Assembly (NCBI RefSeq): GCF_006345805.1
Contig: NW_021835008.1
Span: 1-43,543 of the forward strand
DNA from: Octopus sinensis
Taxonomy: Eukaryota
Length of the DNA stretch: 43,543 nucleotides
Direction of reading: 5' to 3'
Shown: positions 29,699 to 32,241 of the stretch, in pieces
Position numbering within the stretch: position 1 is the stretch's first letter
How the letters are laid out: each line of letters opens with the position of its first letter
Position numbers and translations under genes: made by a program
Notes under the pieces: generated by a model
Told to the model about the DNA's origin: nothing
What the model saw: only the letters and a program-made list of their open reading frames with translations
Database searches by the model: none

Positions 29699-30125
29699 CA
29701 TTTCAAGAGGTGCCTCGCCCATTGATTCCAGTTTCGCTTATAATTCATTTCGCCATTTGCCTACAGCTTATAATATATACGTATATATTGTGCATATAGC
29801 TGCTGCATACACTCGTTAAGATGTCACGCATTGGTTGAAAGAATACTCATGAGTGTAAGAAAAAGTACACATATGTACACATTGCTCTGTATATGTATAT
29901 GTCTAAGTATGTATGCATATGAATGTCTATGTATGTGTTTATGTGTGTTTAGTGTGCGGTATGTTTGTATATAGCTTCGTGTTTAACGCTTTCTGCTAAA
30001 CGACATGTTCCGTCCCACTACGTGAAATTTTGAGTTCGTCCACCATACAGTGAAAATATTCTTGTTACCGGATATACATCAGGATAATACTACACTATGC
30101 GTAGAGTATGTGCATATATATATAC

Positions 30126-30168
<43 letters not shown>

Positions 30169-30208
30169 TATATATATATAATATATATATATAGGGAGAG
30201 TGAAAGAG

Positions 30209-30708
30209 AGATTAGTCGTATACTGTCAACTTAATGTGATAGTCCTATGAAGGGAATCACATCACTGCTATTTATCCCAAAGAAGCATCAAGGCTTCCTG
30301 TCGGCCTTGACACATTTCCTGTGTCCTTATTTTTACAAGGGGGTGATAAGCACCCCCATCCAGCTAAGCCTGCATCCAGAGACATGTTTCTGCATATTTG
30401 CTCGTCATCAGTCTGGAGTAGCATGGCCTACTTGTTGGAGATGCCTGTTTAGTCCTTGTAAATATATAAGAATTCTAGTGAAATAAATCCACCGATTACG
30501 AAAATAGAAATATTACATTTGTAAATATCTCGGAGATATAAGCAGTAGTGGTACGATAGAGTAGTTGTATACTGTCAACTTAATGTGACAGTCCCGTGAA
30601 GGGAATCACACCACTGCTATTTAGTCCTAGGAAGCATCAACGCTTCCTGTCGGCCTTGACACATTTCCTGTGTACTCATGTTTACAAGCTAAGCTTGCAT
30701 CCAGAGAC
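30209..30708 (-). mobile_element. Retrozyme-like element: ~1.5 tandem units around a canonical hammerhead
   Basis: 30209-30383 is directly repeated at 30558-30708 (offset 349, or 325 after a 24-nt indel); hammerhead at 30375-30417; 3' end near (TA)n. Confidence 0.8.
30375..30417 (-). ncRNA. Minimal type I hammerhead ribozyme, canonical core
   Basis: RNA UCCAGA-CUGAUGA-cga GCA aaua UGC a-GAAA-CAUG-UC-UCUGGA; perfect 6-bp stem I; palindromic stem III ACAUGU; GUC triplet. Confidence 0.8.
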
Positions 30709-30852
30709 GATTTTTGTAATTTTTTCAATACTTATACACATCCTGATAACCTCGGTATGTACATATCAAACTTGAGCGCAATCAGATGGGGGATGCCCGA
30801 GATCCTAGAAGACACACAGACAGACAGACAGAACGGATTTTATTAATATATA
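30709..30852 (-). mobile_element. Possible non-autonomous Helitron 5' segment
   Basis: Reverse complement tatatatattaataaaatccgttctgtctgtctgtctgtgtg...caagtttgatatg resembles the 5' ends of animal non-autonomous Helitrons; matching 3' end not found. Confidence 0.4.
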
Positions 30853-30938
30853 TAATTATTTTATTTATTAGGGAATAAAAATTCCAGCATCACACGGGAT
30901 TCAAATAAAATGAATTATTCTCGATAAGGAAATATATT

Positions 30939-31094
30939 TTATTTAGAGATACAGTCCCCATGCAATTCATCAAATCCTAACAGACACCACACCATATCAT
31001 AGAATTTTATCTTATACTTTAAAATGAAATTCTATGATATGGTGGTGTCTGTTAGGATTTGATGAATTGCATGGGAACATCTATCTCTAAATAA
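30939..31094. repeat. ~155-bp near-perfect palindrome
   Basis: ttatttagagata..cccatgcaattcatcaaatcctaacagacacca..ccatatcatagaattt mirrored after a ~13-nt spacer. Confidence 0.92.
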
Positions 31095-31165: not shown

Positions 31166-31279
31166 CACACACTATATATATATATATATATTATATACAT
31201 GCATATACATATATGTATACGTATATAATTGAATAAGATAGAATAAAAAAAGGTATACAGTTGAACAGTTATTTTTTAT

Positions 31280-31382
31280 TCACTACTTATGTTTCCATGC
31301 AACATAATTCTTCATATACACAGAATTTGATTAAGCAACAATTTACCTGCATAATGGGAACCAGTTATTTTTCTTCAGATGA
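31280..31382 (-). ncRNA. Type I hammerhead-like motif, expanded stem II
   Basis: RNA UCAU-CUGAAGA-[76 nt]-GAAA-CAUAAG-UA-GUGA. Confidence 0.6.
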
Positions 31383-31447
31383 TATTCAATTCACATGTGT
31401 TAGCATCGAAGTCGAGGGTTTTGTAATTAACGGTACAGCTACTGAAT

Positions 31448-31553
31448 ATCACCTGACGAAATACAAATAGATCCCATTATACAGGTAAACAGTTGCATAA
31501 TCAAATTCCTGTATATATGAAGAACTATGTTGTATGGAAACATGTGTAGTGAT
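31448..31553 (+). ncRNA. Type I hammerhead-like motif, expanded stem II
   Basis: RNA AUCAC-CUGACGA-aAUACAA...UUGUAUg (77 nt)-GAAA-CAUGUG-UA-GUGAU. Confidence 0.7.
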
Positions 31554-32241
31554 TAAAAAAATAACTGTGCAACCGTATTCCTCTTTGTTTACTGTTTCTT
31601 ATTCAATTTTATTTTCATACAGGACGAATAACGAAATCTAGACTCAGGAAGTATATCGTAATACTACCTGCTGTTCGGTATTTCTAAGGGTGAATCATCT
31701 CTATTCTATACTCTGCTACGTTTTTAACGGAATATACATCATATATATATATATATATTTACATATATATATATTTACATATATACACCGAAGGCTGTGT
31801 GATTTCATTGTTTTTCTTCTTTTTTTGCCATATTGTTGTCGGTGGAGACTTATTTTTGTAGTAAAAGGATATAGTAGTCTTTTGGCTGCTATTTCTAAAT
31901 TTTTCGGTATGTGCTTTAAGCAACTTGTTGCAAAACACCCATATTATTATAGTTATATATATATATATATATAAAGAGAGACAAACAACTACTTTTAAAT
32001 CACTGAGCAGGAAATATGAACTAACAGTACCACATATTAAAGTCTATTGCCAACACAACGTGACAGTCCTACGCAGTACAAATCTAGGTTTTCCTGCGGC
32101 TAAAAAGTAATAACATCGTTCCGCATTGGACTACCACGTTGCGTTGGTAATACGTTTTACTAGATACATACATATATACATACATACATATATGCATACA
32201 TACATACATACACACACACACACATATATATATATATATTC

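What the first reader, a model, noticed from the sequence alone, without database searches (positions are those of the whole stretch)
30209..30708. Direct repeat whose 5' end coincides with the predicted hammerhead cleavage site
Seen: on the minus strand the element begins at about 30708 (GUC|UCUGGAUGC). After 325 nt it reaches a complete canonical HHR cleaving between 30381 and 30380, then repeats the same ~170 nt. There is no ORF. Similarity between the copies stops only 3 nt upstream of the scissile bond. Inference: this fits reverse transcription of a self-cleaved or circular ~325-350-nt RNA (retrozyme or mini-PLE), although the adjacent Helitron-like insertion could also have truncated it there.
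Basis: partly seen in the sequence, partly recalled or inferred. Interest (0 to 1): 0.75.

Follow-up and report, generated by a model that had tools for sequence, protein, structure and literature searches.

The report
Decayed Penelope-spread hammerhead repeat copy
This is an old, partly decayed copy of an abundant protein-less 351-base repeat carrying a predicted self-cutting hammerhead RNA motif, likely pasted into the genome by Penelope-type retrotransposon enzymes, and its start at the ribozyme's cut site is likely a chance deletion junction, because other copies do not start there more often than chance.

Summary
The repeat and hammerhead motif are real; the cleavage inference fails. The stretch is 1.5 units of a ~351-nt non-coding family (3,063 candidate places). 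5' ends do not pile up at the cut site: 5 of 94 arms end within ±2 nt (3.5 expected) and 83 read through. The upstream neighbour is itself cut short at the junction and there is no target duplication, so the end is likely a deletion junction. The 325-nt spacing comes from a private 24-nt deletion, and this copy's stem II is decayed.

The fixed ends are the 3' ends, at two sites ~55 nt apart. Of 53 classifiable back-to-back insertions, 50 pair one short with one long arm; 21 of 49 carry a 10-14-nt target duplication. This is the Penelope footprint and fits priming from both strands of one cut. Verdict: a new member of the known animal non-LTR retrozymes. Self-cleavage, a circle and the partner enzyme are untested.

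Side find: a 1.7-kb zinc-knuckle element without RT repeatedly inserts just upstream of these hammerheads. The scan noted both patterns earlier in other genomes (unchecked notes, read after my own tests).

The parts
30206..30708 (-). Whole element copy: GTC + one unit (with a 24-nt deletion) + a second partial unit ending at the family's short 3' site
   Evidence: family search
30381..30705 (-). First unit, cut site to cut site (325 nt; unit positions 18-41 deleted after 30689)
   Evidence: alignment to a 351-nt unit from L003
30206..30380 (-). Second, partial unit (positions 1 to ~175)
30375..30417 (-). Type I hammerhead motif: stem I 30417-30412/30380-30375, CUGAUGA 30411-30405, extra C 30404, decayed stem II 30403-30392, extra A 30391, GAAA + palindromic ACAUGU + GUC 30390-30381; predicted cut 30381|30380
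   Evidence: sequence; activity untested
30460..30470 (-). TATA-like stretch of the unit (inferred promoter)
   Evidence: in sister copies the target duplications of the zinc-knuckle element begin 15-40 nt downstream of such a stretch; inference
30434..30442 (-). Position equivalent to the insertion hotspot of the 1.7-kb zinc-knuckle element (possible transcription start); empty in this copy
   Evidence: inference
30558..30570 (-). Internal copy of the short 3' site (S, unit ~173), AC-rich stretch after a 7-bp hairpin at 30591-30572
30506..30514 (-). Internal copy of the long 3' site (L, unit ~228)
30206..30221 (-). True 3' end of the insertion at site S (likely start of reverse transcription)
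   Evidence: 114 of 264 arms end at unit 165-179
30114..30205 (.). TC-rich then (TA)n microsatellite at the 3' junction, common in this family
30708..30853 (-). 5' part of an unrelated high-copy repeat (1,088 candidate places), truncated at the junction; shares the G at 30708 with the element
   Evidence: (11 of 11 other copies continue with sequence absent here), loose ends at 30708 in 4 of 4 runs; its class was not tested

Best explanation
The stretch is an old 1.5-unit copy of a dispersed, non-coding ~351-nt hammerhead repeat, likely a non-LTR retrozyme copied into the genome by a Penelope-like RT/GIY-YIG protein acting in trans, and its 5' end at the GUC is likely a chance deletion junction. 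Mechanism: (1) inferred: the unit is transcribed, possibly from its TATA-like stretch. (2) inferred: two hammerheads pair through their palindromic stem III and cut slowly, giving a self-paired monomer that is probably circularised. (3) inferred from footprints: the enzyme makes a staggered cut of about 12 nt in AT-rich DNA and starts reverse transcription internally, at site S (unit ~173) on one strand and site L (unit ~228) on the other. (4) shown: copying stops at scattered points and usually runs through the cut site, giving 5'-truncated partial tandems. (5) shown as structure, inferred as process: the two arms are joined head to head, often at short microhomologies, or only one arm is kept. 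The window copy is a single S arm whose upstream end was lost together with the rest of the neighbouring repeat.
For: Two fixed 3' ends: 114 of 264 arms at unit 165-179 and 100 at 220-234, 173 loci. S+L in 50 of 53 classifiable head-to-head pairs, p=3e-12; 30 of the 83 pairs had an unclassed arm. Sister family E: 12 of 17 pairs (best-scoring hits). Target duplications of 10-14 nt around 21 of 49 two-arm insertions vs 0.8 in shuffled pairings; solo 13 of 84 vs 1.75. Junction microhomology of 3 nt or more in 12 of 30 vs 4.8% by chance. No excess of 5' ends at the cut site. Neighbour truncated, no duplication in the window. Stem III palindromic in 139 of 168 motifs vs 80 (max 98) in column shuffles; stems I and II change compensatorily between subfamilies. 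Four reference units fold as circles with z -5.6 to -6.7; the window unit -2.4 (25 shuffles). Coding RT+GIY-YIG elements exist in the genome. Same architecture and internal two-site initiation on both strands are described for Penelope-like elements (PMC8557442, PMC3846280, PMC11167929).
Against: No coding Penelope-like element shares sequence with the unit: 30 GIY-YIG loci, 4 of them or their family extended; only 30 of 147 matches were looked at. No RNA evidence: cleavage and circle untested. No pile-up at exactly one turn (hazard 0.30 vs about 0.2). The extra C/A at the base of stem II could lower or abolish activity. 28 of 49 pairs show no duplication (many sit in microsatellites). Higher within-locus identity (0.93 vs 0.89) is inflated by subfamily mixing and does not separate a circle from a tandem precursor. 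A deletion made during insertion cannot be told from a later one.
Confidence: 0.8

Rival explanations
1. One reading: this copy was reverse-transcribed from a ribozyme-cleaved RNA and its 5' end marks the cut.
For: Similarity begins 3 nt upstream of the predicted cut. Five arms in the sample end within ±1 nt of a cut site (L082, L125, L272, L291, L306).
Against: Five is what chance gives (3.5 expected, P=0.28); 83 of 94 arms read through. GTC would lie on the upstream cleavage product. The neighbour is truncated at the same junction and no duplication flanks the copy. In the anole Poseidon element no reads began or ended at the cut site (PMC11167929).
Confidence: 0.07
2. The template is a linear, uncleaved read-through or multimeric transcript, or linear RNAs joined by template jumps; no circle exists and the ribozyme is mostly idle.
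For: HHR cleavage is dispensable for Penelope-type insertion in vitro (PMC11167929). No pile-up at one full turn. A mild excess of 5' ends near unit 290-304, close to the putative start. 8 of 9 Xenopus retrozyme dimers did not cleave (10.64898/2026.07.22.740005).
Against: Palindromic stem III and compensatory stems are kept across subfamilies. Arms up to 2.6 units exist (L003), but no long arrays were seen among the first 100 listed sites. The cut-site junction matched a strict pattern in 52 of 65 arms that cross it, and most misses are point changes. This rival changes step 2 only and is compatible with the Penelope steps.
Confidence: 0.35
3. The unit is the terminal repeat of a coding Penelope-like element not yet found, and copies are its stubs rather than an independent retrozyme.
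For: All footprints are those of Penelope terminal repeats; only 30 of 147 GIY-YIG matches (5,029 candidates) were examined.
Against: Long arms run into another unit, not into an ORF. The only shared upstream extension found (3 of 173 loci) is the zinc-knuckle element without RT. Two coding families carry their own minimal U3-A8-type motifs, unlike this one.
Confidence: 0.12
4. The inverted arms come from self-priming on an antisense template (model in PMC3846280) instead of priming from both target strands.
For: Microhomology and palindromes at head-to-head junctions fit fold-back.
Against: Fold-back does not by itself explain why the two outer ends nearly always use different fixed sites, or a target duplication abutting both ends. 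A purified Penelope-like protein cuts and extends both strands (PMC11167929).
Confidence: 0.15

Closest known systems
Metazoan non-LTR retrozymes (Cervera and de la Pena 2020, PMC7229834; Li et al. 2026, bioRxiv 10.64898/2026.07.22.740005)
   Same: Non-coding 150-450-nt unit, GC under 50%, type I HHR with weak palindromic stem III, target duplications longer than 4 bp, self-paired circular fold; the mussel units are 350-390 bp; axolotl HHR_Amex2 has a mismatch at the base of helix II.
   Different: Here copies are dispersed 5'-truncated fragments, partial tandems and inverted pairs, not long arrays in the sample. Extra C/U and A flank stem II. Cleavage and circles are untested here.
Insertions of endonuclease-bearing Penelope-like elements (PMC8557442, PMC3846280, PMC11167929, PMC4209133)
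   Same: 5' truncation, partial tandems, adjacent inverted arm, tail at one end only, 8-10-bp duplications, AT-rich and microsatellite targets, two internal RT start sites, HHR with a base between positions 9 and 10.1.
   Different: No RT or GIY-YIG gene; tail about 55 nt instead of 30-40; no sequence match to the coding families examined; the one-short-one-long pairing is counted here (50 of 53) whereas the passages read call the tail optional or often one-sided.
Canonical metazoan type I hammerhead (definition in PMC4209133)
   Same: 6-bp helix I, intact CUGAUGA and GAAA, GUC cut triplet, 1-2-bp helix III with palindromic loop.
   Different: Helix II is 3 bp plus a C.A mismatch (U-A in one subfamily), and is further decayed in the window copy.

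Membership tests
Non-LTR retrozyme | Type I hammerhead with conserved core in each unit | tested here: met
   87 of 92 parsed motifs have CUGAUGA; covariation. Variant base of stem II.
Non-LTR retrozyme | Short (150-450 nt), GC under 50%, non-coding unit in direct repeats | tested here: met
   351-359 nt, GC 0.40-0.45; tandems up to 2.6 units; no ORF
Non-LTR retrozyme | Target duplications longer than 4 bp | tested here: met
   Family level: 21 of 49 pairs, 13 of 84 solos; absent in the window copy
Non-LTR retrozyme | At least two complete hammerheads in tandem (Li et al. criterion for an active element) | tested here: not met
   Window copy has one; met by other loci such as L002, L003, L013, L015
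Non-LTR retrozyme | Highly self-paired monomer | tested here: met
   Predicted only: circular fold z -5.6 to -6.7 for four units, -2.4 for the window unit
Non-LTR retrozyme | Self-cleavage, as monomer or dimer | not testable with these tools
   Needs an in vitro assay
Non-LTR retrozyme | Accumulating circular RNA | not testable with these tools
   Only assembled contigs were available
Penelope-like element (insertion footprint) | 5' truncation, partial tandems, inverted adjacent arm, one-sided tail | tested here: met
Penelope-like element (autonomous) | Encodes telomerase-like RT plus GIY-YIG endonuclease | tested here: not met
   No ORF in the unit; no shared flank into such an ORF
Penelope-like element (derivative) | Homology to the terminal repeat of a coding element in the same genome | tested here: inconclusive
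   None found, but only 30 of 147 GIY-YIG matches examined
Canonical type I hammerhead | 4-bp helix II joined directly to CUGANGA and GAAA | tested here: not met
   C.A in 61 and U.A in 28 of 92; window stem II decayed

The most novel reading that the evidence does not exclude
A Penelope-like enzyme copies a small circular ribozyme RNA from two fixed internal start sites, one onto each strand of a single 12-nt staggered cut, under a near-strict one-short-one-long rule. The same RNA family is in turn parasitised by a 1.7-kb RT-less zinc-knuckle element that homes by position, not sequence, to the spot between its TATA-like box and its hammerhead.
Probability: 0.35. Interest if true: 0.7.

Novelty: new member of a known kind. 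Interest (0 to 1): 0.4.

Why it matters
The locus itself is an ordinary dead copy. The family is useful because the link between animal retrozymes and Penelope-like elements rests, in the papers read, on shared ribozymes, co-occurrence and sequence similarity. Here a protein-less retrozyme-type unit shows the full Penelope insertion footprint with countable rules (two start sites, one per arm, about 12-nt duplication). That gives a concrete substrate and prediction for the existing in vitro Penelope assay, and shows that ribozyme cleavage does not set the 5' ends of genomic copies.

Tried and rejected
Rfam gave no hammerhead hit and only spurious hairpin or microsatellite matches. An apparent pile of 5' ends at unit 349 was an alignment artefact of a subfamily with a longer stem III loop and vanished with four references. 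The 30 loci were left out of the 5'-end tests because best-score ranking favours ends like the query's; arms anchored on the GTC pattern were used only at their second cut site. Duplicate loci were dropped (L005, L065, L085, L031, L041, L042, L049, L050). No excess of copies of exactly one turn. The neighbour's missing part is not on the other side of the element, so it is not a simple split host. The flank comparison missed the shared extension later seen in L104, L114 and L310. No RNA holder listed; contigs of three runs guessed to be RNA carry family sequence but cannot show expression, ends or circles. One search used a structure string that was out of register for stems I and III; only its stem II rows are valid. 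The L189 match to the unit is a sister-family insertion 700 nt from a coding element, not its terminal repeat. The zinc-knuckle protein: no homologue found, only sub-threshold zf-CCHC, model pLDDT 42 and only weak RRM-like fold hits. Lunse et al. 2017 on Penelope hammerhead variants was not held and was seen only as a citation in PMC6765202; it may describe the stem II variant. No supplements were read.

Full report
1. Observation. On the minus strand 30708-30689 matches 30383-30364 (19/20) and, after a 24-nt gap, 30688-30555 matches 30339-30206 (119/134). A type I hammerhead motif lies at 30417-30375 with the cut predicted between 30381 and 30380. There is no meaningful ORF. Unit positions below count from the first base after the cut in a 351-nt unit of locus L003.

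2. The family. The window lies in G000 (2.72 Gb). The element has 3,063 candidate places, the best at 82-91% identity. Exact motifs give 124, 305 and 1,391 matches, with 0 for reversed controls. A more distant sister family, E, has 3,272 candidate places.

3. The ribozyme. The family form is stem I, CUGAUGA, an extra C or U, a 3-bp stem II, an extra A, GAAA, a palindromic stem III and GUC. The extra pair is C.A in 61 and U.A in 28 of 92 parsed motifs (120 found). Among 168 motifs from all loci, stem III is a perfect palindrome in 139 (80 expected, maximum 98 in 500 column shuffles), in several different spellings, and stem I has all 6 pairs in 103 (58 with shuffled partners). This points to selection for dimeric cleavage (inference from PMC4209133). 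In the window copy stem II has decayed, so this copy is probably impaired.

4. Copies were sampled with a pattern at unit 56-85, which does not depend on the 5' end (88 loci). Of 72 arms reaching the cut site, 3 end within ±5 nt against 7.1 expected, and 68 read through. Adding unforced passes from 85 more loci gives 5 of 94 within ±2 nt (3.5 expected, P=0.28), 6 within ±5 nt (8.2 expected) and 83 reading through. At the window junction, the upstream repeat (30853-30708) continues in 11 of 11 other copies examined with sequence that is missing here and not found downstream. The two elements share one G, and no target duplication flanks the copy. The 5' end is therefore best read as a deletion or chimeric junction that happens to fall at GTC. 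Whether the neighbour is Helitron-like was not tested.

5. What is fixed is the 3' end. In 173 loci, 114 of 264 arms end at unit 165-179 (site S) and 100 at 220-234 (site L). The window copy ends at S, followed by a TC/TA microsatellite. There are 83 head-to-head pairs; both ends could be classed in 53, and 50 of these join one S and one L arm (p=3e-12); 30 pairs had an unclassed, mostly shortened arm. Sister family E shows the same two sites and 12 of 17 such pairs, from best-scoring hits. A 10-14-nt duplication (mode 12) flanks 21 of 49 two-arm insertions, against 0.8 in shuffled pairings, so a pair is one insertion event. Junctions between arms show 3 nt or more of microhomology in 12 of 30 cases against 4.8% by chance.

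6. Mechanism. Partial tandems, an adjacent inverted 5'-truncated copy and a tail at one end are the described footprint of endonuclease-bearing Penelope-like elements (PMC8557442 and PMC3846280, passages). A purified Penelope-like protein cuts and extends both target strands and starts at two internal sites that define the tail, independent of hammerhead cleavage (PMC11167929, parts 1-2 of 4). I infer that such a protein, supplied in trans, primes from both ends of a staggered cut, at S on one strand and L on the other, and that the two copies are joined. The genome holds coding RT+GIY-YIG elements with open frames of 780-883 codons, but none of those examined shares sequence with the unit, and two families carry their own minimal motifs. 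The partner is unidentified. Because copies read through the cut site, the template is either a circle or an uncleaved multimer. The stable circular fold, arms of up to 2.6 units and private variants shared between tandem units in L003 and L015 favour a circle, at roughly 60 to 40; no pile-up at one turn was found.

7. Comparison. The unit matches metazoan non-LTR retrozymes in size, composition, ribozyme type and long target duplications (PMC7229834, passages and parts 2-3 of 6), which a 2026 preprint derives from Penelope terminal repeats (10.64898/2026.07.22.740005, parts 1-3 of 5). It is not an autonomous Penelope element. A base between positions 9 and 10.1 is a described Penelope-hammerhead trait (PMC4209133, parts 1-2 of 4), and mismatches at the base of stem II occur in nature (PMC3088659, passages). 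Seven paper searches returned no description of this family, of a counted short-plus-long rule in a retrozyme, or of the element in section 8; the library lacks most subscription papers, including Lunse et al. 2017. PMC6765202 and PMC2377424 were read as passages.

8. Side finding, absent from the window copy. Three of 173 loci share a different sequence upstream of unit ~296. It is the 3' end of a ~1.7-kb element with one ORF of about 460 codons (CX2CX4HX4C knuckle, charged helical region, no RT seen), ending in AATAAA and a short tail, often in head-to-tail arrays. Of 45 loci, 32 could be scored; 29 have a flanking duplication of 8 nt or more, 21 of these lie 15-40 nt after a TATA-like stretch, and 22 of 32 have a hammerhead core within 120 nt downstream. 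The sample was seeded from retrozyme-linked copies, so these shares are biased upward. Elements 92-95% identical sit in hosts only 59-70% identical, and host labels need 11 changes on the tree (minimum 4, shuffled mean 14.8), which favours repeated insertion over co-descent. A LINE ORF1 origin is a recalled resemblance, not shown.

9. Earlier scan notes, read after my own tests, report the same footprint, the long-plus-short pairing and a LINE targeting the same spot in other genomes. They are unchecked and are not counted as support.

10. Verdict. Real feature, known kind; the highlighted coincidence is not informative. Interest 0.4, carried by the family-level insertion rules.

Noticed in passing
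L418:1357-2940 (+), L419, L368, L384-L423; first seen in L104, L114, L310: A 1.7-kb RT-less element with a ~460-codon zinc-knuckle ORF inserts with 8-21-nt duplications just upstream of the hammerhead of several diverged subfamilies, 15-40 nt after a TATA-like stretch; young head-to-tail arrays with intact frames exist (L414); composites are moved with S and L inverted arms (L373, L382).
   Followed up: yes
L189:145-420; L193-L222: Sister family E (3,272 candidate places) with the same hammerhead architecture, other palindromes in stem III and the same two 3' sites.
   Followed up: partly
L265-L268; L223:1-1260; L224:1590-3033: Two coding Penelope-like families (RT, CxxC linker, GIY-YIG) each end near a minimal hammerhead-like motif of the U3-A8 core type with a palindromic stem III.
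   Followed up: partly
window 30937-31094: Long near-perfect hairpin (inverted repeat) that draws sub-threshold microRNA-family matches in Rfam; likely a fold-back or MITE-type repeat.
   Followed up: no
window 31272-31560: Nested inverted repeats (31272-31328 with 31504-31560, 86%; 31323-31388 with 31443-31508, 83%), MITE-like.
   Followed up: no
window 30708-30853; L152-L162: High-copy short repeat (1,088 candidate places) that starts and ends in (TA)n, with variable internal length; class not tested.
   Followed up: partly
L253-L262: Further, unrelated motifs with the same extra bases around stem II on contig C1, without long ORFs within 4 kb; possibly more families.
   Followed up: partly
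L044, L073, L124, L270, L305: A third, minor 3' or break point at unit ~265-269, where the unit's own TA-rich stretch expands into a microsatellite.
   Followed up: no
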